Notes: generated by a model not told the origin, from the sequence alone. A stretch of DNA of 64,000 bases from a virus (IMGVR_UViG_3300009774_000008:553-64552); one strand, 5' to 3'; shown: positions 41,822 to 62,082, numbered from the stretch's first letter. A program made the numbers and translations.

Positions 41822-43087
41822 TTAAAAAGAGAAATTGTTCTGTCCTATTTTTTCGCAAGCATACCTAAACGCATCCATTAGATGGTTGTAATCCTCTATA
41901 GGAACATTTAATACTCTGCCATCTTTATCTTTATCCCATATATAGTTGTTCAGTTCCACTAGCACATTAACACAAGCGGGGTGAACAAATATCTTATAAT
42001 CCTGTAATTTAAGTATACCAGCCCTAACTGAATCTGGACCTTTTTTAGCTGGTCTGATTCTTTGTATGCCAAAAGTTCTAACCTCCTCAATTGATTTTGG
42101 CTCGGAACTATCAGCCACAATCAAATTCTTGTGATGTTGATGCTCTTTTATTCTCTCAGCTATCATTATATTAGTTAGTTTATATTCATAAAATTCATCA
42201 AAAATAAAGATTTGTTTTTCCTTTTCGTTTACCATACATGCAATAAATCCAGTTGGGTCATTTGTGAACCCCCAATCCAGTCCATAAACCTCTTGATATA
42301 TAGGTTTACTGTGTCTGTCTGTGGAATTCCTTAACTCTTGTATATTGAAATCAAGCTCTTGCCAATTTGTAAATACTAGACCCTCTGCAACACCCCAACC
42401 GCCTAATCCTTCTATTTGATATCGACGAGAATTCTTTTTCTTCATTTCTTCGAACACAGCTAAATCCGCTGCATCTAAAAACTCGTTGCACATATAGTTG
42501 GTGGTCAGGCAAAGCAAATTAGTAGTATTACCTTTATCATATTCATCGAAGAATCTTTTCTTCAACCATATGTTCTCTGACCAAGGGTTAAAAGTGAAAG
42601 TAATTTGTTTGAAATAACCTTCAGGTACTTTACCTCTAATAGATAAATCCAGTTTGTTGAATTCTTCTTCATTAGATATTTGGAATGCTTCTTCTATCCA
42701 TACCCAGCAGAGGAAACCGATTTCAACTGTAATAGATGTTATAGACTGAGGGTCATCAAATCCTCTAAATAATACTTTCTGTCCAGTAGGTAAGTAAGTA
42801 AGCTCAAGAGGATTCATAGTAGCTTTCCACGAGCCGCCAACACCTAACTGATTGATAGCCCATTTTAATTGGGCATAAGTACTGTCACGGTGAGTATTAA
42901 AGTATCGTCTAATGACGACTGCGTTTGCTAGTGGGTATTTCATTATATTAGTAATAAGCCAAAAAGCCATAGTACAACTCTTCTTCGACCCTCTACCACC
43001 TTTAAGTACTCGGTATCGACCTTTAAAGTTCCAGAAAGCACCGTACCCATTACCTATCTTATCCGGCAAATATATTTTAGATTTCAT
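41822..43087 (-). CDS. terL: terminase large subunit (PBSX/SPP1-like)
   Basis: KGGRGSKKS Walker A, WIEEA Walker [32 protein letters not shown]. Confidence 0.95.
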
Positions 43088-43088
43088 A

Positions 43089-43265
43089 TTATCCCTCTTG
43101 CTGTAATTTTTTTATATTCCCTAATATAGTATTCCAATCAGTCTTTGGCGCTAGCATCATTAGATACCCTCTAAATAAATCCAGGTCGTTATAACCATCA
43201 CATGACCTACCCATAACAGGACACAATATTCTATTAATACAGGAAACACATTTTATTTCTGACAT
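43089..43265 (-). CDS. small Cys-rich hypothetical protein (58 aa)
   Basis: Read by hand: [16 protein letters not shown]...; GAGGGGTG SD; ends just before the terL start. Confidence 0.55.
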
Positions 43266-43852
43266 ACTCTCTCACCCCTCTCGTCCTTACCCCTAAATAT
43301 ACAATAAGTAACCGCAATTTTTTTGTACTCTTGTTGTACTCTTGTTGTACTCATAATCTTTTATTTCTCGGGGATAGGCGACGCCTATAGTTATATATTA
43401 TATTGAAACGATTACTTTGTAAAGACAACTTCGAGCATAGTCGTATAATTCTTTACTATTTTGTATATACTAATATAGTAATAACACACTATCGAGTCGA
43501 TTGCTTTTGTGAGGCCTAGTGTGGTTTTGAACCCGGTTTCCTTCAACTATTATAAATAACTCTCTACTCTCGGTATTAGTAATTATGAATAATTTCTCTA
43601 ATAATATACTTTCACTTTATCTTGTAATTCCCGTATAGCCATGGTCTTTAGGTCTTTTCCTCTCAGTTTACTATCAAATAACCGAGACCATCTTTATATT
43701 ATGATAAAAAAATAATGACTCGGCCTTTATGGTACAGAATTCGTAATAAACGGTCATCGACAAGTACACCATCGAGTATGGGGACCACCCCCGGGGTACG
43801 AGATCTAGTGGTACTTCGGACACACCATGTAGTGGTGGGTTGAGAGCAAGGA

Positions 43853-44636
43853 TACTATATATAGTACCGAGTAATAACTATACTATATACAGTATATCCA
43901 GCTGTGACACACCACTATATATAGTATATAATAGAGGTACTTCGTATCTGCTACATACGTTTCCCCTATATTTAGTGTTTTTGAAGCTGTTTCTGGTACT
44001 GCTACTCACATCAGTTACCCTTTCTCGCCCGCACAACGGTGAATCACGTATTTATACCCCTTAGCGTGGTTAGTATTGGTTTTCTACTATAAAAATAAGT
44101 AAACGTAGGTATACAGGTGTACAATAGTATAGTAATAGAGACATACAACATATAGTGCTCTACTATGCTGTATCTACTACATCTCGTATAGTAGAGTCGT
44201 ATATGCCACACAGGTACTATATACAGTATGTTTATAGTTTATTCTAGTACTATATATAGTATATATTTATATCTGCTCTTCTGCTCCCCGATTTCTTTGA
44301 TTTCCGGTATTTTATTGTACTGTTTTGGCAGTACTGTAAATCTGTTATTAACAGGGTAGTAACGTACACTGCGCTCCTGCCGTGTTTTGTGTGTAGTTTG
44401 TACTGTATTAGTAGTTATTTCCTTATTACGCCTTTTTGCGGGTAGTTTAGTGTATTGTAGTTATTTAATGTTTTTTTTACTATGTAGTAGTAGTTATACA
44501 GTACACTTTCTCGCCCGCAAAATGGTTTCTGCGCACTTTTCGCGCCTAATCAATATAAACATACCGGGGTAGTAATATAAATTGCTTTTACAACATCTCG
44601 TACCTGAGGTGTCAACAATACCACTATATATAGTGG
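43853..44636. repeat. dispersed palindrome ACTATATATAGT (4 copies) plus variants
   Basis: Copies at about 43853, 43914, 44248 and 44621; variant TACTATATACAGTA at 43881 and 44215. Confidence 0.7.
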
Positions 44637-44672
44637 ATGTAAAAATACTTTGTAATTCTCGGATTATTTTAA

Positions 44673-44703
44673 GAGATATGGCGAGATATGGCGAGATATG
44701 GCG
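44673..44703. repeat. tandem repeat (GAGATATGGC)x3
   Basis: Seen directly. Confidence 0.85.
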
Positions 44704-45353
44704 TAAAATTTAGTTGATAAGTAGGTAGTTTATTGTAAACGTGTTATTTAGTGTTATTTGCATAAATTCTCGGTTATTTGTGGTTGTATTGTAGTACATA
44801 TTAGTCTATCATTAGTAGTGTACTAAGTAGTTAATTAGTACACAGTAATGCTTAGTTAGTACCATCCCTTGTACATTGTCAATTTCATAGTTCGTCCTTA
44901 TGCTCCGTTTATAGTGTGCTTTTCGTAAATACTATAAATCTTGTAAACTAACTTACCAGTTAGTAGGAATTGGGCGGATTATGGTATACTGTGTACTCGT
45001 AGTTAGTTGCCCCTTGTTAGTTGCTGAAGTATTTTTTCAGTACAACAACTCGGAAGCATTGTACATTGAAAACTTAATATTGTAGTCGCCGTTATATAAG
45101 GTGTCATTTTCGCCTGTATAAACTGCCGTTTGTGAAGTTTTTGCTCGTACTACCTCAGATTTTTTCTCGTCCTTCCTTTAGTTGCCGAAGTTTGGCACAA
45201 CATTGGAAGTATTTGTTAAAATACCCGGTAGCAGGGGGCAATTACTACTATCCCAGGCCTATACAGTAGAGATTGGCAAATATGTGTAAAACACAACCTT
45301 AATACCTCAGAAAAACTGAGAGGAAATGGGCGAAGTGGTGTTAGTAACCACTA

Positions 45354-46022
45354 TGAAGTTTTAGGCGTAGCTGAATGTCCATAATTCTTTTCCGAAGCAT
45401 TTTATCAAAATAAAAATTAAAATTTAAAAGGAGACCGATTATTATGACAAACTCAACTATGAACCTTAAGGACATTATTGCAAAGCAGGTAATTACAAGC
45501 AGGACTGGAAGTTTTATAGAATATAACAGTAAGAAGAAATTATCCGCTTCCGGCGTGCTCACCAAAGAACAAGAAGAAGTAATTGCACAGCTTAAAGGTA
45601 CGTTTACTTTCAATATGCATTCTGAAAATCGTTATTTAATTGTAACCATGTACTATAGTGCTACGAAGACTTACGGATTTTTAGTAATAGATTTGACTAC
45701 TTTGGCAGTAGCTGAATCCGAAAGTATAAAAATTGCCAAGAAATTTGTACTAGACCAGATAGAAGAAGACAAAAAAGTAGTTGTACCAGTTATAGAGCAA
45801 GCACTTGAAGAAATTGTAGCAGAAATAAATGCTCAAATTGAAGCAGAACATAATTCCGAAGTACATGAGCAAGAAATAGTAGAAGAAAAGATTGAAGAAA
45901 AAGTAGAAGATGTAGTTGTTGAAAATGTAGTAGCAGAAGTAGTTGTTGAAACAAAGAAAGACAAGAAATCAAAAAAGTAAGACCTTAAGGATTATGGACA
46001 ATCACATACGCCTAAAACTTCA
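45354..46022 (+). repeat. gene-enclosing stem 1 (arms 45354-45389 / 45987-46022)
   Basis: TGAAGTTTTAGGCGTA..TGTCCATAATTCTT pairs with AAGGATTATGGACA..TACGCCTAAAACTTCA. Confidence 0.85.
45444..45980 (+). CDS. hypothetical early protein with acidic C-terminus
   Basis: AGGAG SD; loop of stem 1. Confidence 0.75.
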   Translation: MTNSTMNLKDIIAKQVITSRTGSFIEYNSKKKLSASGVLTKEQEEVIAQLKGTFTFNMHSENRYLIVTMYYSATKTYGFLVIDLTTLAVAESESIKIAKKFVLDQIEEDKKVVVPVIEQALEEIVAEINAQIEAEHNSEVHEQEIVEEKIEEKVEDVVVENVVAEVVVETKKDKKSKK

Positions 46023-46368
46023 AATCTGTCGTCAGTTGTAAACACGCAATCTCCTAATAAGAGAGAGGGCGTGCTTAATAATGAGAGAAGAAACTAATAA
46101 GATGACTATATTACTTGCCGACGAATACATTGATGTGAACGACGTTCAGCATTTGCTGACTGTATTTTCGGGGAATGACCTGAAGAAGTTGAAGTATGGA
46201 ATAACCTTTGAAGTTGACGGAGAACCTAAAGAATGTATAGCCTTGGATAATGGTACTTTTGTATATCAATCCGAAGGTGATAATGTTCGTACGAAGAATT
46301 TTGTAGAAGTATTGAATTATTTATTGTAAGAAGAAGAAGAATTGCGTGTTTACACATGACGACAGATT
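46023..46368 (+). repeat. gene-enclosing stem 2 (46023-46050 / 46341-46368)
   Basis: AATCTGTCGTCA-gt-TGTAAACACGCAAT pairs with ATTGCGTGTTTACA-ca-TGACGACAGATT. Confidence 0.88.
46081..46329 (+). CDS. hypothetical early protein
   Basis: ORF with SD; loop of stem 2. Confidence 0.65.
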   Translation: MREETNKMTILLADEYIDVNDVQHLLTVFSGNDLKKLKYGITFEVDGEPKECIALDNGTFVYQSEGDNVRTKNFVEVLNYLL

Positions 46369-46820
46369 ATTATGCGCAATTGTAATGCTCTCGCTAAAAA
46401 GGAGAAAGAAACTTATGAAATTATTTAAAGTTGAAATTGCCATTTTAGCCCCAGCACAGGACGCCGAAGGGGCCAAAAACCGGTTCATAGACCAATATGA
46501 TTCAACAGAATCCATTGTAGAATCCCTAACTGTACACGAAATTGTACCACATGAGGATTTCATTAAGCTCTTCAGGTTGGGAAGAATTTTAGATAAAATT
46601 GACCAGTTCAGTACTTTTGAGACAATTTCATTGGTAACTGAATATGCTAAATTGTTGGGATATATATTAACGGTGGATGAAGTGTCAGAAGGTATTATAG
46701 CTTGGTGTGAAAGATTAGAGGATATTCCGGACGAAGAATTGGAAGACTGGTTGAATTAGTACAGAAGACAAAACATAGTCAAAATATACATGAGCGAGGG
46801 CATTACACATGCGCATAATA
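46368..46820 (+). repeat. gene-enclosing stem 3 (46368-46395 / 46793-46820)
   Basis: TATTATGCGCA-at-TGTAATGCTCTCGCT pairs with AGCGAGGGCATTACA-ca-TGCGCATAATA (one U.G). Confidence 0.88.
46415..46759 (+). CDS. acidic hypothetical early protein
   Basis: AGGAG SD before MKLFKVE; loop of stem 3. Confidence 0.7.
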   Translation: MKLFKVEIAILAPAQDAEGAKNRFIDQYDSTESIVESLTVHEIVPHEDFIKLFRLGRILDKIDQFSTFETISLVTEYAKLLGYILTVDEVSEGIIAWCERLEDIPDEELEDWLN

Positions 46821-46975
46821 CGAAGAAGTGAAGATTCTATGTATAGCAATGTACCGAGAAGAATTACCTCTTTTAGTGGCGAAAACATTTCTATCTTTGG
46901 TGGGTCATATAAGGGTGAATTGTCTTAAGGAAAAATGCTCTCGGAATGTACGAGAATTAATTAGGAGGATTCACC

Positions 46976-47689
46976 ATGGAATCGAAAAAATACATTGTAA
47001 GAGGCACGTTGAAGGGCCACAAATGGGTAGATAGTGAAACAGAATACATGAATTCCGCAGAATTAGTGGATGATGTAGATGAGATAAAAGAACTGTTTAC
47101 CCAAGACTCGGACGATGAATTGGCACAATATATAGGTGAAAGAGAAACCATTTATGGTTTATTCGACTCTATATATGTAAATGTTGAAATTATCGGCGGT
47201 AAGTTGTATAGCAGAACAGAAATTCTATCCAAGAGAGAATTAACCGAAGAAGACAAAGTTTCTCTATTGTCTTACTTAACTGGTCAGTTTTCAGATGGAT
47301 ACGGCGAAGGATTGGAACAGCATGCTTACAGTAAATTCCGAGAAACAATAGAGTCAGAAGAATGGGACGAAGAAGAACAGGAGTCCTTTACAGAGGAGAA
47401 TGAGATAGATGTTGAATCTTTCCTGCACTTATGGCAACGAGGTGATGAATTTAAGTTGGAATTTATTTCTCCGGAATTAGAAGGAGTAACACCAACTGAA
47501 GTTACTAAACCTAGATGCAAGTTAATTGGTGAGGATGGAAACATATTTAATCTAATTAGTATTGCTAGACGTAAATTAGTGAAAGCAGGTCAGGCAGATA
47601 TAGCAAAAGAGATGGAAGCGAAAGTAAAAAGTAGCAAAAGCTATTCAGAAGCTCTTGGCATTATTTGCGATTATGTAGAAGTATACTAG
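46976..47689 (+). CDS. very acidic hypothetical protein
   Basis: AGGAGG SD; GQFSDGYGEG and C-terminal LIGEDGNIFNLI domains. Confidence 0.75.
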   Translation: MESKKYIVRGTLKGHKWVDSETEYMNSAELVDDVDEIKELFTQDSDDELAQYIGERETIYGLFDSIYVNVEIIGGKLYSRTEILSKRELTEEDKVSLLSYLTGQFSDGYGEGLEQHAYSKFRETIESEEWDEEEQESFTEENEIDVESFLHLWQRGDEFKLEFISPELEGVTPTEVTKPRCKLIGEDGNIFNLISIARRKLVKAGQADIAKEMEAKVKSSKSYSEALGIICDYVEVY

Positions 47690-47702
47690 AGAGGAGAATA
47701 AT

Positions 47703-47888
47703 ATGAAGAAACTAACTGGAAAGCAAAAAGAAATATTACTTAGTTTCGTAATAGAAAAATTAGTGGATGAATTAAATGCTCAAATGGGTGAAACTAATGG
47801 ACCATTGGTTTTGTACGATTCAGAAGTAGAAGAGATTAATGATGCTATAAAACAACTCGGCATCAATACTAAGTTGGAAATAATCTAA
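47703..47888 (+). CDS. small hypothetical protein
   Basis: GAGGAG SD; loop of stem 4. Confidence 0.65.
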   Translation: MKKLTGKQKEILLSFVIEKLVDELNAQMGETNGPLVLYDSEVEEINDAIKQLGINTKLEII

Positions 47889-47976
47889 AGTACATGATAC
47901 AGACAATTCACCTTTATACGACCCACCAAGGATGTTCGACCGCAGACTACAGCACAACCAGAATGAGAGGTTACTT

Positions 47977-48303
47977 ATGAAAAATAAAGATGAAAGACAA
48001 ATCACTCTTGGGGACTGCAGAGACGACATTTTATATGAACTGGGTTATGCTCAATACTTGGAAGAGTCTTTTCCAGATAGCCCTGATACGAAACTAAATC
48101 TATGGCAAAGATTACTAAATAGACATAAGTTTTGCGTATTTGTAAATGCCTGTTATGATTTAATTAGGTGGAAGTTCAACCATCTAATATGTAAGGTTTT
48201 TGGACATAAATGGATAGATGAAAGTTATGGCGGCCCTGAAGGTGGAGGAGAGTTTTTCTGCTGTGATAGATGTGGAAAATCTTTTGGAAACACGCTTTAT
48301 TAA
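47977..48303 (+). CDS. hypothetical protein with C-terminal Zn ribbon
   Basis: GAGAGG SD before MKNKDE; ICKVFGHKW...CDRCG. Confidence 0.7.
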   Translation: MKNKDERQITLGDCRDDILYELGYAQYLEESFPDSPDTKLNLWQRLLNRHKFCVFVNACYDLIRWKFNHLICKVFGHKWIDESYGGPEGGGEFFCCDRCGKSFGNTLY

Positions 48304-48326
48304 ATAATAGGTGGGGGGTCACTATA

Positions 48327-48482
48327 ATGCGTAAACTATTAAAAGGAATTGAGCTTATTTGGATAGTCATTTCAATCTTAATTCTATCTTGGTTCTTTGT
48401 TTCTTGGATTGGTGTTATCAGTTCTAATACAGTTCCTGGTAATTCTATTCCGGCATGGAATGCTTTTAACATATTCCAATAA
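48327..48482 (+). CDS. small membrane protein
   Basis: GGGGG SD before MRKLLK; one TM helix. Confidence 0.6.
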   Translation: MRKLLKGIELIWIVISILILSWFFVSWIGVISSNTVPGNSIPAWNAFNIFQ

Positions 48483-48568
48483 ATTTAGATTGGTTGTGCT
48501 GTAGTATGCGGTCGAACTTGTTCTGATATAATGACACGACAACATAAGATGAAAGGTTGGGTCATTAC

Positions 48569-48817
48569 ATGAAAAAATTAACAAAAGAGAGTTATGAAAA
48601 ATTCCTTGAGGGCTATGGTAGCGACATTAATTCCGAAGGCTATGAAGGCGAGCAGATATACGATTTAGCTCGTTGTGTTATAGACGCAAGAGATTCTGAG
48701 ACAAAAGCTGTCACACAATACCTAAATAGTATTGGAGTTTCAGATGTTCTTGGGAGACTTGCAGATGATATGTCATGTGCTGCTAATAAGTCAAGGAGGA
48801 ATAAAAATGGAAGATAA
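48569..48817 (+). CDS. hypothetical early protein
   Basis: GAAAGG SD before MKKLTK; loop of stem 6. Confidence 0.65.
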   Translation: MKKLTKESYEKFLEGYGSDINSEGYEGEQIYDLARCVIDARDSETKAVTQYLNSIGVSDVLGRLADDMSCAANKSRRNKNGR

Positions 48818-49445
48818 CAGAATGATGGATAAAATTAGAAAGTTGCTTAAACTTTCTGAGAATAATGAAAATGAATCCGAAGCATCTTCTGCTTTGCTTA
48901 AAGCACAGAAGTTGATGTCTGAAAATAATATTTCAATGGATATGTCTAATCCTGAAAAGATTGAGTATGCTTCTCTAGTATGTGAGCATAAATGGGATAT
49001 GGGTTTTAGAAAGCCTTTAGGTACTGTGATTGCGAGGAATTTCCGTTGCAAGATGTATTTGCAATCAAATTCAGTTGTATTTATGGGCCATGCTTTTGAT
49101 GCTCAAGTAGCAAAAGAAGCTTTCGAGTATGCTTATGAGTTTGCATTAAAAGAAGGAAACAAGCATTATAATAAAGCATATTCAATGGGAATTGAAACTA
49201 GGGGTGTATTTAACTCTTATGTACTAGGCTTTATTAAAGGAATAGACCATAAGTTCTCAGAACAGTCAGTAGCTTTAATGATTATTATCCCTCCCGATGT
49301 AGAATCAACATTTACAACGATGACGGAAAAATGGAAAACGTCAAAGGGTGGGATGCGACAAGGAAATTTTAATATCAATGCTTATACAGAAGGAATGCAA
49401 GACGGCAAGACCATAATGAACGGAAGAAGAATAGCTAGCAAATAA
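48807..49445 (+). CDS. DUF2786-family protein
   Basis: DKIRKLLKLSE.NENESEASSALLKAQKLM N-terminal motif; NSYVLGF; GGAGG SD. Confidence 0.8.
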   Translation: MEDNRMMDKIRKLLKLSENNENESEASSALLKAQKLMSENNISMDMSNPEKIEYASLVCEHKWDMGFRKPLGTVIARNFRCKMYLQSNSVVFMGHAFDAQVAKEAFEYAYEFALKEGNKHYNKAYSMGIETRGVFNSYVLGFIKGIDHKFSEQSVALMIIIPPDVESTFTTMTEKWKTSKGGMRQGNFNINAYTEGMQDGKTIMNGRRIASK

Positions 49446-49557
49446 TAAAAATAGGTCGTGTCATTATATCAGAACAAGATAAGAGATGAAACTAACACCA
49501 CTAATTATCTAGGTGCTTATTAGAACATGGTGTGCCTTACATTAGGAGGAAATTAGT

Positions 49558-49764
49558 ATGGAAAAACAATTTAATCTGACCGATTTCTATAACACATATG
49601 CCCAAAGATGGGACTATATATGGGATAATGTAGAATTGGGTTTATGCTACTATGCCGATGACAAGATGTTTTATGTTTTCGACAAAACAAAAGATGATAA
49701 CATATGTGAAACCAATGATTTCAACCACGCAATTAAAATATTAAATGGAGGATTAACACTATGA
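49558..49764 (+). CDS. small hypothetical protein
   Basis: AGGAGG SD; loop of stem 7. Confidence 0.7.
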   Translation: MEKQFNLTDFYNTYAQRWDYIWDNVELGLCYYADDKMFYVFDKTKDDNICETNDFNHAIKILNGGLTL

Positions 49765-50027
49765 GCGAAAAGTACACTGAAACAGAGAGAGAACTAATAA
49801 TGCTAATATTAGATGCATCCGAGAATTGCAGTCCTACGAAACTAAGTATTAACCATACCACAGAAACCGGTCAAGTTAGAAAAGGTATTGTTATTACTGA
49901 AGCCTGTGGTGCAATTATCGATAAGATAGTAAAAAGTCCTTTGGTTATGACTACTTATCTAACTCCTAAGGGGCTTCACGTAACTTGCCACCAGAAAGGT
50001 GAAAGAAAGTCTGTGGGTTGCATATGA
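49761..50027 (+). CDS. hypothetical protein
   Basis: GGAGG SD; ATGA overlap with the upstream gene. Confidence 0.7.
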   Translation: MSEKYTETERELIMLILDASENCSPTKLSINHTTETGQVRKGIVITEACGAIIDKIVKSPLVMTTYLTPKGLHVTCHQKGERKSVGCI

Positions 50028-50245
50028 TTAAGAGTGTGTTTAGTATGAATGCAAATGAGTGCTTTGCTATAATGGCAATACAAGAAGCGATGGGAACAGT
50101 TCCTACCCAAGTAAATGGGTTAGACATGCTCACACCAGAAGAAATTAAAGAGATTAAAGAAATAGCTTATAAATTCTGTGTAAAGATGATGAATGAATCA
50201 TTTAGAGTACAAGAGTCAGCCATTAGTCAGTTCTGGGGAATATAA
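50018..50245 (+). CDS. hypothetical protein
   Basis: Overlap-coupled ORF ending just before the 3' arm of stem 7. Confidence 0.6.
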   Translation: MHMIKSVFSMNANECFAIMAIQEAMGTVPTQVNGLDMLTPEEIKEIKEIAYKFCVKMMNESFRVQESAISQFWGI

Positions 50246-50286
50246 CATAATCAGCACACCATGTTGCAATAAGCATCTAGATAATA

Positions 50287-50574
50287 TATCACAGGTCCTA
50301 ATATAGGTGCTTCATTGAGAGGAGTACATTATGAAAAGGTATAAAGATAAAGAGATTGTAACTTGTCATGTTTGTAATGGTACTGGATTTGTACCAGAAG
50401 ACTATGAAGGTGATTTATTCTTAGCTGAATGTCCTGTTTGTGAAGGAGATTGTATTATAGAAATTGAGCATATTCAATATCAAGGAGAGAATTTAAGAGT
50501 ACTGAGAGATTCATATCGAGTAAAATAATAAACATAAGAAATGGTATGAAGCATCTATATTAGGGCCTGTGATA
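50287..50574 (+). repeat. gene-enclosing stem 8 (50287-50315 / 50546-50574)
   Basis: TATCACAGGTCCTAATATAGGTGCTTCAT pairs with ATGAAGCATCTATATTAGGGCCTGTGATA; 29 bp fully paired as RNA (2 G.U). Confidence 0.9.
50331..50528 (+). CDS. small zinc-finger protein (CxxCxG x2)
   Basis: CHVCNGTG...CPVCEG; GAGGAG SD. Confidence 0.7.
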   Translation: MKRYKDKEIVTCHVCNGTGFVPEDYEGDLFLAECPVCEGDCIIEIEHIQYQGENLRVLRDSYRVK

Positions 50575-50632
50575 CAATCATATGCTCAGTTATATGGTGC
50601 TCCTCCTAATACATTTTATCTAAGAAGAAACA

Positions 50633-50661
50633 TTTACATTTTCCTTAGTATGTAGTACAAT
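50633..50661 (+). promoter_or_regulatory. sigmaA-type promoter with TATGTAGTACAAT inside the loop of stem 9
   Basis: TTTACA-17 nt-TACAAT. Confidence 0.7.
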
Positions 50662-50705
50662 AGTAATTACCGCAAGACAAAATAAAATTTAGGAGGACAC
50701 ACACG

Positions 50706-51638
50706 ATGGCAGCAAATGTAGAAAATATGTTTTCAGTAAGAGAAACACCTTGGCACGGATTAGGTACAGTTATTCAAGAGGCCCTAACAAGTAAAGAGGC
50801 AATTGGTATAGCGGGTTTGGATTGGACAGTAGAGCAAATTCCACTAATTCACAAAGAGCAAGATTCGGGATACTTTATGAATGTTAGAAGTTCAGATGAA
50901 AAGGTTCTTGGTGTAGTTGGTGGCAGGTACAAACCCGTACAGAATGTTGAAGCATTTGATTTCACAGATGATTTAATAGGACAGGGTGTAAAGTATGAAA
51001 CTGCTGGAAGTCTAAGCAATGGTAAGAGAATATGGATGCTAGCTAAAATGCCTGAAACAGATATATTAGGCGATAAAGTAGAGCCGTTCATGTGCTTAAC
51101 CAATTGTCATGATGGATTTGGTAGTTTGAAAGTGTGCATGACACCGGTAAGAGTTGTTTGTCAGAACACTTTAAATCTCGCTCTTGATTCAGCTAAAAGA
51201 ATGTGGTCAGTTAGACACACTGGAAGTATTGGTGCTAAATTAAGTGAAGCTCGTAGAACCTTTGATCTTGCTGGAACTTATGTAGACTCATTGAAAGAAC
51301 AAGCAGAGAAATTGGCCGCAATAAAAGTAGCTCCAAAAGACTTTGATATGTTAGCAGAAACTATGTTTCCAGTAACAGGCGAGATGACATCAAGAAAAGA
51401 AGACTCACAGCTCTTGTTGCAAGAACAACTTCGTCAGGCTTGGAACATGGATGATTTGGGTAACATAAAAGGAACTGCTTGGGGATTTATCAACGCTGTT
51501 TCGGATATGGCAACTCATAAGAAACCAGGAAGAAAGACAGACAATTCACAGGAGAATTCATTTATGTATACCATAGATGCTCCCGTAATATTAGATGCGG
51601 CGTTGAAATTAATACTTCAATCAAGAATGTCAGTATAA
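50706..51638 (+). CDS. DUF932 / phage-plasmid TIGR03299-like protein
   Basis: MAANVENMFSVRETPWHGLG, AGLDW, QNVEAFDF, YETAGSL, TPVRVVCQNTL. Confidence 0.88.
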   Translation: MAANVENMFSVRETPWHGLGTVIQEALTSKEAIGIAGLDWTVEQIPLIHKEQDSGYFMNVRSSDEKVLGVVGGRYKPVQNVEAFDFTDDLIGQGVKYETAGSLSNGKRIWMLAKMPETDILGDKVEPFMCLTNCHDGFGSLKVCMTPVRVVCQNTLNLALDSAKRMWSVRHTGSIGAKLSEARRTFDLAGTYVDSLKEQAEKLAAIKVAPKDFDMLAETMFPVTGEMTSRKEDSQLLLQEQLRQAWNMDDLGNIKGTAWGFINAVSDMATHKKPGRKTDNSQENSFMYTIDAPVILDAALKLILQSRMSV

Positions 51639-51716
51639 CATACAAAAGAGGAGCATCATATAAATGAGCATATGAGTAAGTACATCACTTCATTATAAAC
51701 TAAGGAGGCCACTATA

Positions 51717-52007
51717 ATGGCTAAAAGATTACAGAAAATAGAGATTTCAGTATTAGTAGCGAGAGCAAATAATACGTTAGCTAATCCTAAGATAAGTCAA
51801 GGTGAGAAAAAAGGTGTATGTTGTTTGCTAGAAGAAGTGCTGATGGCTACTAAAACATACCGAGGTTTCAATTATGTTCACTGGTTAGCTGGGGGTTGTA
51901 AAGAATGGTTAGCGTGTGTGGAGTTAGGGACTGTTAAAGAAGATGATTTTAACACAAAACAGAAGTATTTAGGCGAAGAATATTCAAGGATGTACTACAG
52001 TAGGTAA
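51717..52007 (+). CDS. hypothetical protein
   Basis: AAGGAGG SD; LEEVLMATKTYRGFNY. Confidence 0.7.
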   Translation: MAKRLQKIEISVLVARANNTLANPKISQGEKKGVCCLLEEVLMATKTYRGFNYVHWLAGGCKEWLACVELGTVKEDDFNTKQKYLGEEYSRMYYSR

Positions 52008-52043
52008 CACAAATAGAGAGGAGTTAAAAGAGGTGACCCGAAA

Positions 52044-52463
52044 ATGAGAGTCCTTAAGGTAGCAACTGCGAGCAAAGCTTGCATTGTGCCCCTAAAGATA
52101 ATATTTATATTGCCGCTCAAATTAATTCTTTGGGTGTTGGGGTTAATTTTATATCCCTTCACCCGAAAGCACAAAAAACAAGAACGGATTGAAATTGTAG
52201 AGGAAGATGAACCAATACCACAAATACAAGAAATTCCGGAGTTTCAAGAAATATTCAATGTTACCAGAGACACTATAATTGGAATAGAATATATCGAAAG
52301 AATTCCGGATGAGACTGCATTTATTAGAGTAATTGGAGAGTTCGGTTTCACTAAGCAATTCAAGAAGAAAGTTTGCAAGGATGCAGGTTACAATGGAAAT
52401 AGATACATCAAGGTAGACAATATTAAGTACTACCTAGAAAAATCAACAGCTAGAAATTTATAA
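52044..52463 (+). CDS. membrane-anchored hypothetical protein
   Basis: N-terminal TM helix; GAGGTG SD. Confidence 0.65.
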   Translation: MRVLKVATASKACIVPLKIIFILPLKLILWVLGLILYPFTRKHKKQERIEIVEEDEPIPQIQEIPEFQEIFNVTRDTIIGIEYIERIPDETAFIRVIGEFGFTKQFKKKVCKDAGYNGNRYIKVDNIKYYLEKSTARNL

Positions 52464-52479
52464 CTCGGAGGAAAATTAT

Positions 52480-52758
52480 ATGAAATGTACAGGAATAGTT
52501 AGAAGAATAGACGATTTAGGAAGAGTTGTAATACCAAAAGAAATAAGAAGAACTTTCAACATCTGTGAAGGTGACCCGCTTGAAGTGTATACTTCGGCGG
52601 AGGGTATCACGTTTAAAAAGTATGTGTTTGAAAATCAATGTATCATGTGCGGTGAGGCTACTGATGATTTAGTAGGTGAAAAGCATCTCTGTAATGGTTG
52701 TCAATCTAAAATTGTAAGGAACTTCGATTCTAAAAAATTTAGCAATAGAGAGGAGTAA
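52480..52758 (+). CDS. AbrB-family transition-state regulator with C-terminal Zn motif
   Basis: MKCTGIVRRIDDLGRVVIPKEIRRT; CIMCG...CNGC. Confidence 0.88.
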   Translation: MKCTGIVRRIDDLGRVVIPKEIRRTFNICEGDPLEVYTSAEGITFKKYVFENQCIMCGEATDDLVGEKHLCNGCQSKIVRNFDSKKFSNREE

Positions 52759-52759
52759 A

Positions 52760-53008
52760 ATGCGTGAATTTCAATTCAGGTGTGCCAAATGTGATGCTGT
52801 TTGGTACGCCACCAAAAAGGATTTAAAAGAGAGTCGTAAGAACAGAAAAAATATTCTAATCACTAAATTAGGTTTGTTCGGACTTCATACTAATAAGACA
52901 TATCGTAGACTTAATGAGCAAGTTGCTCAAATGCAAGTAGCTTCCAAAGACTACGAGAGATGCTCTGCTTGCGGCTCTCGTGATGTATCTAAAAATGTTA
53001 ATAATTAA
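52760..53008 (+). CDS. small Zn-ribbon protein
   Basis: CAKC...CSACGS; GAGGAG SD. Confidence 0.65.
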   Translation: MREFQFRCAKCDAVWYATKKDLKESRKNRKNILITKLGLFGLHTNKTYRRLNEQVAQMQVASKDYERCSACGSRDVSKNVNN

Positions 53009-53010
53009 AT

Positions 53011-53043
53011 AAAAAAGGAGCCCGTTATGGGTTCCTTTTTTTT
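53011..53043. terminator. bidirectional intrinsic terminator
   Basis: AAAAAAGGAGCCC-gttat-GGGTTCCTTTTTTTT between convergent blocks. Confidence 0.85.
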
Positions 53044-53069
53044 ATGGTTATTTTTAGGGGGTTACATAG

Positions 53070-53546
53070 TTAGTCTGGAATTTTATCTTCTCCGTAAATT
53101 TGCACGATACAACCATCTACATTGATATTTGTCTGATTAAAACCATTCATAGTATTAAGCTCTTTAACAGGCAATACAATAGCGTTGAGTCTGCTCATGG
53201 TTAATTGTTTAGCAACTAAACCTAATTCTTCGTCTCCATATATGTCTTGCTCTGCTTTCTCAATAAGACGTACTAACTTCTGAGTTGAAACCTCTTTAGT
53301 CCATACACCCTTCTTTACTTCTTTTTCTCTAACCTCTTCCATTACCGCTTGATAGTAATTATTCACATGAGGTTTATAGAAAAGACGATTTGACTTCTCC
53401 CTAATATTTTGTCTATTATAAGAAGTAAGTTCCTGACCAAAAGCTACAGAATATGCTTCTATCTTATCCATGCCTTCATACGCCATATTACCAATAAACT
53501 TTCTTTGTGGTTCTGTTAGTGGTTTTAACTCTGGGTCAACAATCAT
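53070..53546 (-). CDS. terS: probable terminase small subunit
   Basis: LTEPQRKF...EAYSVAF...SNRLFYKPHVNNY N-terminal HTH, helical middle, KELNTMNG, C-terminal IYGEDKIPD. Confidence 0.65.
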   Translation of the reverse strand: MIVDPELKPLTEPQRKFIGNMAYEGMDKIEAYSVAFGQELTSYNRQNIREKSNRLFYKPHVNNYYQAVMEEVREKEVKKGVWTKEVSTQKLVRLIEKAEQDIYGDEELGLVAKQLTMSRLNAIVLPVKELNTMNGFNQTNINVDGCIVQIYGEDKIPD

Positions 53547-60032: not shown

Positions 60033-60369
60033 TTTTAATATCCCCCATCTTGTGGTTGAGCCATAATAGCCTTTGAGCCCGCCTAACTGTATCTTCGTCC
60101 AAATAAGGTAAATCGAATCCAGTTGCTCCATTGAATCCTTTAAACGCATCTGCATATAATACAGTGCTAGCTATTTCTGGATATTTGTTTTGCAGGTCTG
60201 CTAGTTCATTTGCCCACTCTTGCCACTTCATATCCGATACTATATTAGTATCCATTGCGTAGTATATACAAGAGTGAACCAGAATTTGAAGCCTTCGTTG
60301 CTGTATCTTTTCAAATATCAGAAGATTATCATCCTCCTTTAATTTAGTCCTAGCCTTGACTAACGCCAT
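59965..60369 (-). CDS. stand-alone NAD-dependent DNA ligase N-terminal (domain Ia)-like protein
   Basis: RRLQILVHSCIYY...IVSD..W...ELADLQNKYPE; no adenylation domain. Confidence 0.7.
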   Translation of the reverse strand: MALVKARTKLKEDDNLLIFEKIQQRRLQILVHSCIYYAMDTNIVSDMKWQEWANELADLQNKYPEIASTVLYADAFKGFNGATGFDLPYLDEDTVRRAQRLLWLNHKMGDIKSDKQPENKKHKGLFKTSRRTNS

Positions 60370-60769
60370 GAACCTTAGCCTCCTGTATTGGGGTAACATT
60401 ATTTTGATACCATTGTCTAGACGGTGTGGGCTTTAAACCAAAGGATACCTTAAGTGCCTCATCAACCTGTTCCATTATGTAAGGCTCTAAAAAGTAGATG
60501 CAATTTTCAAGCTCTCCTACGGAAACAGGACCAGCTTGTTCCGTCATCGCAGTATTGATTTCTCCATTTAGAGTAAACAGAACGTGAGTAGGCATATTTC
60601 TCTTGACGGCTGTGGTACAGGGTACTACAAGCAAAACAGATGAAGTATCGTTGCATACATTATTGCTGACGATAACTACTGGTCTAGAACCCGCCTGAAT
60701 GTGACCAGCTGCACGTGTTTTAGGATTACGATACCAAATTTGACCTCTTTTAAATTCAACTCCACTCAT
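60350..60769 (-). CDS. MazF/PemK-family endoribonuclease
   Basis: KRGQIWY, GHIQAGSRPVVIVSNN..N, VVPCTT, PTHV, EQ, VDEALKVSFGL. Confidence 0.85.
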   Translation of the reverse strand: MSGVEFKRGQIWYRNPKTRAAGHIQAGSRPVVIVSNNVCNDTSSVLLVVPCTTAVKRNMPTHVLFTLNGEINTAMTEQAGPVSVGELENCIYFLEPYIMEQVDEALKVSFGLKPTPSRQWYQNNVTPIQEAKVHGVSQG

Positions 60770-60770
60770 T

Positions 60771-61373
60771 TTATAAAACCCCCTTGTATTCTTCGATTGC
60801 ACTTTTTACTATCCACCCACTCCATGTAATTTCTGACAATTGAGCCTTTAAACTATCTAATGCTATATTTAGCTCTTTCTCAGAATCAAATGGATTAATG
60901 TGAGCATGGCCTCCGCATTCGGGACCGATGCCGTATAACCTGCTTACGGGATGAGTTAATCTTCTCCCACATCGCATACACGTGGTGGTTGCCATTGGAA
61001 CTACGTGACAATCCATGTATACCATTCCTCGTGTTTCTTTGACTACTTTTCCGAGCATAGTTCTAAAAGGCATTGGTACATTGTTATTCCACTTTTCCTG
61101 AAAATCAAAATCTGGTGATGAAGGCTTTGTCATGTATTGTCTTACGTGAACGATGTATTTATGATTAAGCTGCATACCTGTTTGTGATCCCATATGTTGT
61201 TCGACTGAATTATTCTCCTCTCTTATTCTTTCAGCTAATACTGCTTGTACTACTTTTAAGTTTACACTAACCCGTTCTCCTGCGTGTAGTTTTTTAATTG
61301 CTTCTTCTAAATTAGTAACTTGTTCGCCGTTTAATTCCATTGGCCTTTTTATCTCCCGTAATACCATTTCCAT
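60771..61373 (-). CDS. DUF6011-like Zn-finger protein
   Basis: CMRCGRRLTHPVSRLYGIGPECG. Confidence 0.7.
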   Translation of the reverse strand: MEMVLREIKRPMELNGEQVTNLEEAIKKLHAGERVSVNLKVVQAVLAERIREENNSVEQHMGSQTGMQLNHKYIVHVRQYMTKPSSPDFDFQEKWNNNVPMPFRTMLGKVVKETRGMVYMDCHVVPMATTTCMRCGRRLTHPVSRLYGIGPECGGHAHINPFDSEKELNIALDSLKAQLSEITWSGWIVKSAIEEYKGVL

Positions 61374-61535: not shown

Positions 61536-61883
61536 CTATCCACAATGTATCTCCCCTCCTATAACGGATTTAATTTTTCTTAACTGGTCTAAGGACAAGT
61601 TTATTTTACCGTACTCTCGGATTATCTTTCTTATGTCATTAGATAATATATCATGTTCTTGTTTATCTTCGATTTCTTGTCGGCTAAAATATAAATAATA
61701 ATCAGCTGCGTAATCTGTTATTTGGTCAAAATCCACTTTATTAAATTTATAAGTTAGGCTACCGTCCAATGTTACTGTTATACATTTTGAGCCTAATGAT
61801 GTTATTACACCTTCTCTAATTTCTGTATTGTATCTCGAGGTATTAACCCCAGGAGATAAATATACTGTTTGGCCTTTATTCAT
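61536..61883 (-). CDS. hypothetical protein
   Basis: GAGGGG SD before MNKGQTVY. Confidence 0.6.
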   Translation of the reverse strand: MNKGQTVYLSPGVNTSRYNTEIREGVITSLGSKCITVTLDGSLTYKFNKVDFDQITDYAADYYLYFSRQEIEDKQEHDILSNDIRKIIREYGKINLSLDQLRKIKSVIGGEIHCG

Positions 61884-62082
61884 CTTTTTTCCCCTCTCCC
61901 GCATACCATTTGGACATTTTATCGAACTTGTCAGCAAATTCGTTAAATCCCATTTCTTTTAACATTTCTATTATTAAATCGTCCGCATCTTTATGGGAAT
62001 ATTCTTCGTCATAAAAATTAGTATCTAATTTTAATAATATTTCGTCTAGTTTTTTAATGTACTTTTGCTTTATATCTTCCAT
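61876..62082 (-). CDS. small hypothetical phage protein
   Basis: DEEYSHKDADDL...KWYA. Confidence 0.65.
   Translation of the reverse strand: MEDIKQKYIKKLDEILLKLDTNFYDEEYSHKDADDLIIEMLKEMGFNEFADKFDKMSKWYAGEGKKDE

What the first reader, a model, noticed from the sequence alone, without database searches (positions are those of the whole stretch)
45354..51675. Chain of nine long-range stems, each looping out whole genes of the early transcript
Seen: nine different 24-36 bp inverted-repeat pairs, all with intergenic arms, bracket complete ORFs plus their SD sites. Pairs: 45354-45389/45987-46022 (1 gene), 46023-46050/46341-46368 (1), 46368-46395/46793-46820 (1), 46893-46925/47901-47933 (2), 47934-47960/48491-48517 (2), 48517-48540/49455-49478 (2), 49504-49535/50254-50285 (3), 50287-50315/50546-50574 (1), 50578-50605/51648-51675 (1). 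At six of the eight junctions the next 5' arm starts within 0-3 nt of the previous 3' arm. The stems share no primary sequence. Isolated mismatches are 8 G.U wobbles on the plus strand versus 1 A.C, which indicates selection on plus-strand (RNA) pairing. Established: RNase III stems bracket 16S/23S rRNA this way, whereas T7 and SP82 early RNase III sites are local hairpins between genes. Inference: the ~6.3 kb transcript folds into a rosette with genes as petals. These could be released as end-protected or circularised mRNAs, or serve as swappable cassette slots. I do not recognise this architecture from any described phage.
Basis: partly seen in the sequence, partly recalled or inferred. Interest (0 to 1): 0.93.

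Follow-up and report, generated by a model that had tools for sequence, protein, structure and literature searches.

The report
Phage early genes looped out by RNA stems
In the early operon of an uncultured phage, each gene or small group of genes lies between two flanking sequences that pair only with each other. The long message therefore probably folds into nine stems like those that bracket ribosomal RNAs for cutting, and related phages keep these stems through compensating mutations.

Summary
All nine inverted-repeat pairs lie exactly where reported. They are the only such pairs in the 64-kb window, against 0-1 in shuffles. Fourteen related IMG/VR contigs carry the same back-to-back stems around the same genes. 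207 control loci from other phages and from bacterial genomes (about 3.1 Mb) show no chain at all.

The pairing is selected in the sense RNA:
- Arms match 96% within a genome but only 69% across orthologues.
- In three stem families, 17 of 28, 22 of 33 and 25 of 36 pairs changed on both sides. 0 of 500 shuffles reached these values.
- G.U outnumbers A.C 47 to 18.

The minimum-energy fold keeps 247 of 265 pairs and adds short helices that close groups of stems.

My best reading is that these are rRNA-like processing or insulating stalks, probably cut by host RNase III into end-clamped messages. The cutting is inferred, not shown. The phage encodes no RNase III, RNA ligase or recombinase, and no RNA data exist. 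Seven literature searches found no description. This scan had already noted the same layout in at least eight other, unrelated phage genomes.

The parts
45354..46022 (+). Cassette 1. Arms 45354-45389 / 45987-46022 (36 nt, 89%). The loop holds one ORF, 45444-45980 (178 aa, family F2, no Pfam hit). There is a tandem mismatch in the centre of the stem.
   Evidence: Duplex -46.3 kcal/mol. Orthologous stems show 25 of 36 pairs changed on both sides.
46023..46368 (+). Cassette 2. Arms 46023-46050 / 46341-46368 (28 nt, 93%). One ORF, 46081-46329 (82 aa). The cassette is unique to this genome among the relatives fetched. The centre has the tandem mismatch GU opposite CA.
   Evidence: Duplex -39.1 kcal/mol.
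46368..46820 (+). Cassette 3. Arms 46368-46395 / 46793-46820 (28 nt, 89%). One ORF, 46415-46759 (114 aa, family F4). The imperfect core is conserved.
   Evidence: Of 28 pairs, 17 changed on both sides. The two central columns are unpaired in 6 of 6 genomes.
46893..47933 (+). Cassette 4. Arms 46893-46925 / 47901-47933 (33 nt, 91%). ORFs 46976-47689 (237 aa, family F1) and 47703-47888 (61 aa). The leader holds a local hairpin at about 46938-46956.
   Evidence: Of 33 pairs, 22 changed on both sides. Duplex -50.7 kcal/mol.
47934..48517 (+). Cassette 5. Arms 47934-47960 / 48491-48517 (27 nt, 96%). ORFs 47977-48303 (108 aa) and 48327-48482 (51 aa).
   Evidence: Duplex -47.5 kcal/mol.
48517..49478 (+). 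Cassette 6. Arms 48517-48540 / 49455-49478 (24 nt, 100%). ORFs 48569-48817 (82 aa) and 48807-49445 (212 aa, DUF2786 + DUF7168, family F3).
   Evidence: Duplex -37.9 kcal/mol.
49504..50285 (+). Cassette 7. Arms 49504-49535 / 50254-50285 (32 nt, 91%). Three small ORFs: 49558-49764, 49761-50027 and 50018-50245. No counterpart in the relatives fetched.
   Evidence: Duplex -44.9 kcal/mol.
50287..50574 (+). Cassette 8. Arms 50287-50315 / 50546-50574 (29 nt, 93%; both mismatches are G.U). One ORF, 50331-50528 (65 aa). No counterpart in the relatives fetched.
   Evidence: Duplex -47.0 kcal/mol.
50578..51675 (+). Cassette 9. Arms 50578-50605 / 51648-51675 (28 nt, 93%). One ORF, 50706-51638 (310 aa, DUF932, family F5). 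A promoter-like site lies at 50633-50661 inside the loop.
   Evidence: Duplex -42.1 kcal/mol.
45334..45345 (+). 5' strand of a 12-bp second-order helix. Its partner is 49491-49502. The helix closes stems 1-6.
   Evidence: It is in the minimum-energy fold and is the only 12-bp match between linkers. A homologous 11-bp helix occurs in L090.
49482..49502 (+). Linker after stem 6. Bases 49482-49488 pair with 46886-46892 (7 bp, closes stems 4-6). Bases 49491-49502 pair with 45334-45345.
   Evidence: Analogous 7-bp helices occur in L092 and L094.
46874..46892 (+). Linker before stem 4. Bases 46874-46879 pair with 45348-45353 (6 bp, closes stems 1-3). Bases 46886-46892 pair with 49482-49488.
   Evidence: The 6-bp helix rests on the fold prediction alone.
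53011..53041 (+). The only strong intrinsic terminator on the plus strand of the block (14-pair stem plus a T run). It marks the end of the operon. The ORFs between 51717 and 53008 carry no bracketing stems.

Best explanation
The nine arm pairs are RNA elements of one plus-strand early transcript. That transcript starts in the 2.2-kb non-coding region upstream and ends at the terminator at 53011-53041. Once a cassette has been transcribed, its 3' arm pairs with its 5' arm. The result is a 24-36 bp helix (-38 to -51 kcal/mol) that loops out one to three complete genes together with their ribosome-binding sites.

Successive helices abut with 0-3 nt between them. Short second-order helices made from the remaining linkers close groups of stems, so the message folds into a hierarchical rosette.

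I read the helices as messenger-RNA counterparts of the leader-trailer stalks of rRNA operons. They are most likely substrates of the host's double-strand-specific RNase III, because the phage encodes no RNase III of its own. Cutting would split the polycistronic message into separate messages. The 5' and 3' ends of each would stay clamped in the inner half of the stem, shielded from 5' and 3' exonucleases and independent of neighbouring cassettes.

This would make each accessory early gene a self-contained unit that can be gained, lost or exchanged without disturbing the rest.

What is shown: the pairs exist; they are specific to this clade; they covary; and selection acts on the sense strand. 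What is inferred: a single transcript, folding in vivo, cutting by RNase III, and stabilisation or insulation.
For: Existence:
- There are exactly nine pairs in 64 kb, against 0-1 in shuffles.

Clade specificity:
- Loci from related contigs carry chains of up to 7 stems with up to 6 abutting junctions.
- Of 70 other DUF932-bearing phage loci, 69 have none and 1 has a single pair.
- Of 57 more distant TerL loci (0.82 Mb), 3 have one isolated pair each. Of 80 loci from bacterial genomes (1.23 Mb), 4 have one isolated pair each. None of these has a chain.

Covariation:
- Complementarity is 0.96 within a genome (36 stems) and 0.69 between orthologous arms of different genomes (186 pairs, of which 5 reach the lowest within-genome value).
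- On MAFFT alignments of whole cassettes, 88.0%, 89.5% and 87.8% of cells pair, against 70%, 74% and 64% in shuffles.
- In the same alignments 17 of 28, 22 of 33 and 25 of 36 pairs changed on both sides. 0 of 500 shuffles reached these values, and slid controls pair at 30-57%.
- Over six orthologue groups, 122 of 168 paired columns changed on both sides and 34 of 1102 cells are non-canonical. That alignment was fitted to the stems.

Strand:
- G.U outnumbers A.C 62 to 25 in 59 distinct stems and 47 to 18 in 47 representative stems.
- Cargo ORF cover is greater on the sense strand in 52 of 54 loops.

Fold:
- 247 of 265 pairs are kept in the minimum-energy structure of 6421 nt, which also contains the closing helices.
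- Linker helices recur in relatives.

One transcription unit:
- There is no strong internal plus-strand terminator and no excess of promoter-like sites (36 found against 41 expected).

Plausibility:
- A 5'-3' UTR duplex of S. aureus icaR is an RNase III substrate (PMC3868564, passages read).
- The stems are 24-42 bp long, enough for RNase III, which needs about two helical turns (recalled).
- The nearest TerL relatives in bacterial genomes are in Clostridia MAGs. This suggests a Bacillota host.
Against: - No RNA data exist for this phage, so co-transcription of both arms, folding and cutting are all untested.
- A good promoter-like site (TTTACA-17-TACAAT) lies inside loop 9. Transcripts starting there would carry only the 3' arm.
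- The second-order helices are 6-12 bp, too short for RNase III. They point instead to a structural role for the uncut fold.
- In icaR, RNase III cutting of a 5'-3' duplex destabilises the message. Cutting therefore need not stabilise.
- Stems of families F2 and F4 keep an invariant imperfect core in 6 of 6 genomes. This hints at a sequence-specific partner other than, or in addition to, RNase III.
- The G.U excess could partly reflect strand-biased C-to-T mutation, and the counts are not phylogenetically independent.
- All relatives form one clade, so conservation of the layout may be a single evolutionary event. The covariation inside the stems, however, is many events.
Confidence: 0.55

Rival explanations
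1. The helices are not cut. They act as structural clamps or insulators in an intact polycistronic RNA. Each cistron is held as a closed loop, so its stop codon lies close to its own ribosome-binding site. This would allow ribosome recycling and make folding independent of neighbouring cassettes. All untranslated spacer would be hidden in duplex, away from single-strand-specific nucleases.
For: Arms abut with 0-3 nt at 6 of 8 junctions in the window and at 38 of 65 junctions in the clade (sources are redundant). Trailers are short: 6-12 nt in 7 of 9 cassettes. The phage has no RNase III or dsRNA-binding domain.
Against: Perfect helices of 24-36 bp are standard RNase III substrates, and nearly all bacteria have that enzyme (established knowledge). 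It is hard to see how such helices would escape cutting. Tight gene overlap, as used elsewhere in this phage, would remove naked spacer RNA at lower cost.
Confidence: 0.25
2. The 5' arm is part of a translational licence. Before the 3' arm is made, the pyrimidine-rich inner end of the 5' arm pairs with the ribosome-binding site of its own cassette. The longer 3' arm then displaces it and switches translation on only when the cassette is complete. This could coexist with either reading above.
For: Inner ends of many 5' arms resemble an anti-Shine-Dalgarno sequence, and the matching 3' arms begin with GGAGG-like runs. In 4 of 9 window cassettes the Shine-Dalgarno sequence is predicted to pair with the 5' arm at P = 0.80-1.00, against 0.22-0.61 with shuffled arms. 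Over 45 cassettes the cognate arm-RBS duplex averages -10.35 kcal/mol against -8.54 for non-cognate arms. Twelve of 45 fall in the best tenth.
Against: This is not general. In 5 of 9 window cassettes there is no such pairing. Only 27 of 45 cassettes are better than the median non-cognate arm. Any C/U-rich arm pairs with any Shine-Dalgarno sequence.
Confidence: 0.1
3. The repeats act in DNA. They would be terminal inverted repeats of mobile gene cassettes, or sites for inversion or excision by a recombinase.
For: Cargo varies between genomes. A second gene is present or absent inside an otherwise identical stem. Cassettes 2, 7 and 8 are unique to the window and sit exactly at junctions. Stems are nested in L009.
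Against: - The arms of different cassettes share no sequence that a common enzyme could recognise (non-cognate complementarity 0.58).
- The genome has no tyrosine or serine recombinase.
- No cassette is inverted in any relative: sense-strand ORF cover is greater in 52 of 54 loops, and the other two are open on both strands.
- Abutting arms leave no room for target-site duplications.
- The G.U over A.C asymmetry has no meaning in duplex DNA.
- Many compensatory point changes keep the pairing.
Confidence: 0.04
4. The stems guide cutting by a sequence-specific single-strand nuclease, such as the phage's conserved MazF/PemK-like enzyme. It would cut at the unpaired ACA-containing core or at UACAU sites beside the stems. 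The ends might then be joined by a host ligase into circular messages.
For: A PemK/MazF-like gene (60350-60802, minus strand; E = 7e-16) is present here and in 5 of 5 near-complete relatives. The invariant unpaired core of F2 and F4 stems lies in ...ACACAU... on the 3' arm. TACAT is the most enriched 5-mer in the unpaired flanks of the window stems: 7 seen against 0.5 expected from loop interiors, and 0 of 500 dinucleotide shuffles reach 7.
Against: - Most stems are perfect duplexes with no unpaired core.
- In relatives TACAT is only weakly enriched (7 against 3.4; 31 of 500 shuffles reach it). The stronger ACATA signal comes mostly from a recurrent GGAG-CACAU-AUG start context.
- ACA-type words are not depleted in the phage's own messages.
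- The phage has no RtcB or Rnl ligase.
- The specificity of this MazF is unknown.
Confidence: 0.05

Closest known systems
Leader-trailer processing stalks around 16S and 23S rRNA in bacterial rrn operons, cut by RNase III (abstract of PMC6582327 seen in the listing; otherwise established knowledge)
   Same: Sequences on the two sides of a functional RNA unit pair over hundreds to thousands of nt into a long helix that loops the unit out. Several such helices follow one another in a single transcript. The pairing is kept by covariation.
   Different: The cargo here is protein-coding genes with their ribosome-binding sites, not rRNA. There are nine units rather than two or three. The arms abut with 0-3 nt, and linker helices close groups of stems. 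No boxA-like antitermination signal occurs above chance. Cutting has not been shown.
RNase III sites between early genes of T7/T3 and of Bacillus phage SP82 (recalled; no paper read here)
   Same: Double-stranded RNA signals in the spacers of a polycistronic early phage message, processed by the host enzyme. Some have an internal loop. Processed ends stabilise the messages.
   Different: Those are local hairpins between genes. Here each helix is made from the two ends of a cassette, 230-1042 nt apart, so the gene itself is the loop.
[quoted passage not shown]
   Same: Helices within mRNA formed by segments hundreds of nt apart, in a Bacillota cell, and cleaved by RNase III at paired positions.
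   Different: Those are scattered single sites in cellular mRNAs. They are not a tiled series that brackets every cistron, and they have not been reported in phages.
icaR 5'-3' UTR pairing in Staphylococcus aureus (PMC3868564, passages read), and the fbi-tac closure of hok mRNA (recalled)
   Same: The two ends of one message pair with each other. An SD/anti-SD-like sequence takes part. The duplex controls translation and is an RNase III substrate (icaR), or keeps the RNA stable and inert (hok).
   Different: Those are single genes, the duplex is short, and in icaR it covers the ribosome-binding site itself and lowers expression. Here the ribosome-binding site lies inside the loop, and the helices are 24-36 bp.
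Gene-cassette systems: integron attC sites, and PeSL promoter-stem-loop cassettes of T4-type phages
   Same: Accessory genes are organised as exchangeable units bounded by imperfect inverted repeats. For attC, structure matters more than sequence.
   Different: attC and PeSL are local hairpins at one cassette boundary and act in DNA or as promoters. Here there is no integrase, the arms lie on both sides of the gene, and selection is on the RNA strand.

Membership tests
rRNA-type leader-trailer processing stalk (RNase III substrate) | A helix formed by the two flanks of a complete functional RNA unit within one transcript | tested here: met
   Nine arm pairs flank whole ORF sets. 247 of 265 pairs are kept in the minimum-energy fold. 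That both arms lie on one transcript is inferred from the absence of internal terminators.
rRNA-type leader-trailer processing stalk (RNase III substrate) | A helix long enough for RNase III (about two turns or more) | tested here: met
   Stems are 24-36 bp in the window and 24-42 bp in 47 representative stems. Duplex energies are -37.9 to -50.7 kcal/mol.
rRNA-type leader-trailer processing stalk (RNase III substrate) | Pairing maintained by compensatory change | tested here: met
   17 of 28, 22 of 33 and 25 of 36 pairs changed on both sides. 0 of 500 shuffles reached these values.
rRNA-type leader-trailer processing stalk (RNase III substrate) | Staggered cleavage by RNase III inside the helix | not testable with these tools
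   No RNA run holds the sequence. This needs end mapping in wild-type and rnc strains.
rRNA-type leader-trailer processing stalk (RNase III substrate) | Cargo is rRNA, with boxA-type antitermination upstream | tested here: not met
   The cargo is ORFs. The boxA-like pattern matched 22 times against 25.9 expected, and no exact copy lies upstream of stem 1. There is no Rfam match in 43000-53300.
T7/SP82-type early-mRNA RNase III site | Lies in the spacers of a polycistronic early phage transcript | tested here: met
   All arms are intergenic in the plus-strand block, which diverges from the packaging genes. The label 'early' is inferred from position.
T7/SP82-type early-mRNA RNase III site | A local hairpin, with both arms in one spacer | tested here: not met
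   The arms are 230-1042 nt apart and enclose genes.
Integron-like or invertible DNA cassette | A site-specific recombinase in the element | tested here: not met
   No Phage_integrase or Resolvase match in the 64.5-kb genome, and both controls were positive.
Integron-like or invertible DNA cassette | Cassettes found in both orientations, or excised | tested here: not met
   Sense-strand ORF cover is greater in 52 of 54 loops, and the other two are open on both strands. The three DNA runs that I laid gave no informative joint (told under Tried and rejected).
Transposon or MITE with terminal inverted repeats | The same terminal repeat on every copy, plus target-site duplications | tested here: not met
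   Non-cognate arms have mean complementarity 0.58 and maximum 0.75. Arms abut with 0-3 nt, which leaves no room for duplications.
Circular RNA made by cleavage and ligation (archaeal BHB/RtcB type) | A ligase, and a bulge-helix-bulge or equivalent cleavage motif | tested here: not met
   No RtcB or RNA_ligase family match in the phage. Most stems are perfect. A host ligase cannot be excluded.

The most novel reading that the evidence does not exclude
Gene-bracketing RNA stalks may be a general, so far undescribed way for phages to organise accessory early genes. Each cassette would carry its own private pair of arms, making it a plug-and-play expression unit. The whole operon would fold into a hierarchical rosette whose stems are read by host RNase III, and in stems with the invariant imperfect core perhaps by a dedicated partner such as the clade's conserved MazF-like nuclease. 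The products would be messages with clamped ends, or even joined ends. The same layout in at least eight unrelated phage genomes noted by this scan would then reflect convergent or very ancient design.
Probability: 0.3. Interest if true: 0.9.

Novelty: new variant of a known kind. Interest (0 to 1): 0.8.

Why it matters
If the stems work as inferred, phages have extended the logic of rRNA processing stalks to messenger RNAs. They would use it to make rapidly exchanged early genes, often counter-defence genes, independent of their neighbours in stability and translation.

That would be a natural counterpart of the RNA-processing insulators built by synthetic biologists. It would also explain how mosaic early regions stay expressible. 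It would provide many compact, mutually orthogonal helix pairs for engineering operons in Gram-positive hosts.

The question is directly testable with end mapping in RNase III mutants and with compensatory-mutation reporters.

Tried and rejected
- Megablast of the region against 50,697 phage records gave no match. The best TerL hit among cultured or deposited phages is 52% identical. No cultured relative, and therefore no published transcriptome, could be used.

- Sequencing runs: no RNA holder is listed; there are only three DNA runs. Laying them showed the same sequence in contigs and two joints with sides of 21-24 nt, which I regard as uninformative. Nothing there bears on expression or rearrangement.

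- Single-protein searches of viral contigs with the 237-aa cassette-4 protein and the DUF2786 protein found nothing new. The TerL search and the DUF932 alignment search gave the relatives.

- Rfam gave no match at E up to 1 in 43000-53300. No tRNAs were found.

- The boxA lead from earlier notes gave a pattern at chance level.

- Promoters inside the arms: the 5' arm of stem 6 holds TGATATAAT, but its orthologues do not keep it. The region has no excess of promoter-like sites. I rejected this as a general reading.

- RBS sequestration by the 5' arm holds for only a subset of cassettes. I kept it as a minor rival.

- Avoidance of MazF sites in phage messages: there is no depletion of ACA-type words.

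- Literature: seven searches returned no paper describing gene-bracketing stems in phage messages. The library lacks most subscription journals and supplements were closed, so an older description, for example of Bacillus phages, cannot be excluded.

- The structure-prediction, protein-homology, atlas and complex tools were not used. The cargo proteins are not the question here.

Full report
**What the window is.** The window is bases 553-64552 of a 64,552-bp IMG/VR virus record that CheckV rates as complete. It encodes the following:
- A contractile-tail virion module and large terminase on the minus strand: TerL 41822-43087, plus portal, major head, sheath and tape measure.
- Replication genes: DNA polymerase, clamp loader, DnaB-like helicase, primase and a UvsX-like recombinase.
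- A holin and an NlpC/P60 lysin.

A 2.2-kb repeat-rich non-coding region (43.1-45.35 kb) separates TerL from a plus-strand block. That block runs from 45.4 kb to the only strong plus-strand terminator at 53011-53041. The finding lies in the first 6.3 kb of the block. The closest TerL genes in deposited phages are 52% identical or less. In bacterial genomes they are 60% or less and lie in Clostridia MAGs. I infer a Bacillota host, but this is only a hint.

**Checking the observation.**
- All nine pairs are at the stated coordinates.
- They are the only pairs in the window above 82% complementarity within 3 kb.
- They are the only ones my own scanner finds. Block shuffles gave 0 or 1.
- Junction gaps are 0, -1, 72, 0, -1, 25, 1 and 3 nt.
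- 5' arms end 15-100 nt before the first start codon, and 3' arms begin 6-33 nt after the last stop.
- Arms of different cassettes do not pair (mean 0.58, maximum 0.75).
- The nine stems contain 8 G.U and 2 A.C mismatches on the plus strand. One of the A.C is part of a tandem mismatch.

**Relatives.** I fetched relatives with TerL and with an alignment of the DUF932 cargo protein. Together these gave loci from 14 related contigs. Where the early region is present, these loci carry chains of up to 7 long-range stems with up to 6 abutting junctions.

The stems bracket the same gene families in the same order: F2, F4, F1, F6/F8 or F13, F3, a variable slot, then F5 (DUF932).

Three sets of control loci show no such chain:

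| Control set | Loci | Result |
|---|---|---|
| Other phages carrying a DUF932 gene | 70 | 69 with none, 1 with a single pair |
| More distant TerL loci | 57 (0.82 Mb) | 3 with one isolated pair |
| Loci from bacterial genomes | 80 (1.23 Mb) | 4 with one isolated pair |

The architecture is thus a property of this phage clade, not of the gene families or of A+T-rich phage DNA.

**Selection on pairing.**
- Orthologous arms have diverged, yet each genome keeps its own arms complementary. Complementarity is 0.96 within genomes (36 stems) and 0.69 across genomes (186 ordered pairs, of which 5 reach the lowest within-genome value). Unrelated arms give 0.58.
- I aligned whole cassettes with MAFFT, so the alignment is not fitted to the structure. 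Taking the window's stem as the structure, the three families tested gave the figures below. No shuffle of 500 reached any of the observed values.

| Family | Cells paired | Shuffled | Slid partners | Pairs changed on both sides |
|---|---|---|---|---|
| F4 | 88.0% | 69.9% | 30-57% (range over all three families) | 17 of 28 |
| F1 | 89.5% | 73.8% | 30-57% (range over all three families) | 22 of 33 |
| F2 | 87.8% | 63.8% | 30-57% (range over all three families) | 25 of 36 |

- A stem-fitted alignment of six families gives 122 of 168 columns with changes on both sides and 34 of 1102 non-canonical cells.
- G.U pairs on the sense strand outnumber A.C (which would be G.U on the antisense strand). 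The counts are 62 to 25 in 59 distinct stems and 47 to 18 in 47 representatives (binomial p = 4e-4, not phylogenetically independent).
- The cargo is coded on the same strand in 52 of 54 loops. The other two are open on both strands.

Together this places the selected pairing in the plus-strand RNA.

**Predicted architecture.** The minimum-energy fold of 45300-51720 (6421 nt, -1628.5 kcal/mol) keeps 247 of the 265 proposed pairs. It adds three helices:
- A 12-bp helix, 45334-45345/49491-49502, closing stems 1-6.
- A 7-bp helix, 46886-46892/49482-49488, closing stems 4-6.
- A 6-bp helix, 45348-45353/46874-46879, closing stems 1-3.

The 25-nt linker after stem 6 is thus almost entirely used for pairing. 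Linker helices of 7-11 bp recur in relatives at equivalent places. One example is an 11-bp helix in L090 that shares its first eight bases with the window's helix and differs compensatorily beyond them. Shuffled linkers give 0.01-0.9 such helices per genome. L009 has fully nested long stems.

**Fine structure.**
- Mismatches other than G.U cluster in the middle of the stems. They lie 10-16 nt from the outer end and peak at 16-17 nt from the inner end.
- In F2 and F4 stems, two central columns are unpaired in 6 of 6 genomes. Invariant pairs flank them, while the rest of the stem covaries. On the 3' arm this core reads ...ACACAU....
- Many 5' arms end in C/U-rich, anti-Shine-Dalgarno-like runs, and their 3' arms begin with GGAGG-like runs.
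- In a subset of cassettes the 5' arm is predicted to pair with its own ribosome-binding site. This holds for 4 of 9 in the window, and 12 of 45 cassettes fall in the best tenth against non-cognate arms.
- One stem (the F9 slot) keeps almost identical arms in five genomes while the gene inside diverges and a second gene is present or absent.

**Mechanism.** The phage has no gene for any of the following: RNase III, a dsRNA-binding domain, RtcB, an Rnl-type ligase, a tyrosine recombinase or a serine recombinase. Positive controls worked in each search. Any double-strand cutting must therefore be done by the host.

Passages of PMC11780869 show that B. subtilis RNase III cleaves paired positions in long-range intramolecular mRNA helices. 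Passages of PMC3868564 show that a 5'-3' UTR duplex in S. aureus is an RNase III substrate. Perfect helices of 24-36 bp would be expected to be cut.

I therefore favour, at about 0.55, the reading that these are processing stalks. Host RNase III would cut the early message into units, and the ends of each unit would remain clamped by the inner half of its stem. Stabilisation and insulation from neighbours would be the benefit.

Three points weigh against this:
- The short second-order helices cannot be RNase III sites and suggest a function for the uncut fold.
- A promoter-like site lies inside loop 9.
- In icaR, the cut destabilises the message.

The main rival (0.25) is an uncut structural clamp. 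Minor rivals are a translational licence through arm-RBS pairing (0.1), cutting by the MazF-like nuclease with possible circularisation (0.05), and a DNA-level role (0.04). The DNA-level role fails every test applied here.

**The MazF lead.**
- The gene is real (PemK_toxin, E = 7e-16). It is conserved in 5 of 5 near-complete relatives at 32-38% identity.
- In the window, TACAT is the most enriched 5-mer in the unpaired flanks of the stems: 7 seen against 0.5 expected from loop interiors, and 0 of 500 dinucleotide shuffles reach 7.
- In relatives the enrichment is weak (7 against 3.4; 31 of 500 shuffles reach it).
- The stronger ACATA signal in relatives comes largely from a recurrent GGAG-CACAU-AUG start context.
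- ACA-type words are not depleted in the phage's messages.

One possibility is that this nuclease cuts early leaders between the Shine-Dalgarno sequence and the start codon, to shut early genes off, by analogy with T4 RegB (recalled). I have not tested this, and it is separate from the stems.

**Comparison and novelty.** The elements work like rRNA leader-trailer stalks. They meet that family's structural criteria: a flanking helix, sufficient length and covariation. They fail on cargo and on boxA, and their cleavage cannot be tested here. They are not T7- or SP82-type sites, which are local hairpins. They are not integron-like, invertible or transposon-like DNA elements.

Seven full-text searches found no description of gene-bracketing stems in phage messages. 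The library lacks most subscription journals and supplements were closed. This scan had already recorded the same layout in at least eight other phage genomes. None of them is a look-alike of this stretch.

I class the finding as a new variant of a known kind, and I rate its interest as high. The evidence for selected RNA pairing is strong, the layout seems widespread yet unpublished, and it can be tested directly.

Noticed in passing
window 43100-45350: A 2.2-kb non-coding region lies between TerL and the early operon. It holds six copies of a 13-17 nt palindromic word (ACTATATATAGTA-like) and many other direct repeats. Relatives have similar arrays built from different palindromes. It is probably the early promoter/operator, origin or packaging region.
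   Followed up: partly
window 60350-60802 (-): A PemK/MazF-like endoribonuclease gene (E = 7e-16) lies among the replication genes. It is conserved in 5 of 5 near-complete relatives. No antitoxin was recognised. UACAU words are enriched in the unpaired leaders and trailers of the early cassettes of this genome, several of them between the Shine-Dalgarno sequence and AUG. This could be a RegB-like shut-off of early messages.
   Followed up: partly
window 61536-61937 (-): A protein with a phage ProQ C-terminal-like domain (PF24203, E = 1.4e-12). It is a possible RNA-binding protein in a phage whose early message is rich in long helices.
   Followed up: no
window 50633-50661 (+): The promoter-like site TTTACA-17-TACAAT lies inside loop 9, upstream of the DUF932 gene. 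L090 has a TTGACA-containing insert at the same place, while four other relatives lack the insert (alignment). The last cassette may also be transcribed on its own.
   Followed up: partly
window 46938-46956 (+): A small local hairpin lies in the leader of cassette 4, between the 5' arm and the ribosome-binding site. The orthologous leaders show a hairpin at the same place with a different stem sequence. I saw this by eye in the alignment and did not count it. One search also flags the site as a minus-strand terminator-like feature.
   Followed up: no
L091 5230-6079, L093 7104-7945, L098 7447-7946, L097 7444-7941, L092 3197-3737: One stem keeps nearly identical arms, including the same G.U pair, in five genomes. 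Meanwhile the enclosed gene diverges strongly, and a second, non-homologous gene is present in two of them next to the 3' arm.
   Followed up: partly
window 51717-53008 (+): The last four ORFs of the plus-strand block carry no bracketing stems. One of them (52480-52758) has an AbrB/SpoVT-like N-terminus by eye; this is recalled, not tested. Many unrelated contigs in the DNA runs matched only bases 52476-52553. So the stems cover only the first nine units of the operon.
   Followed up: no
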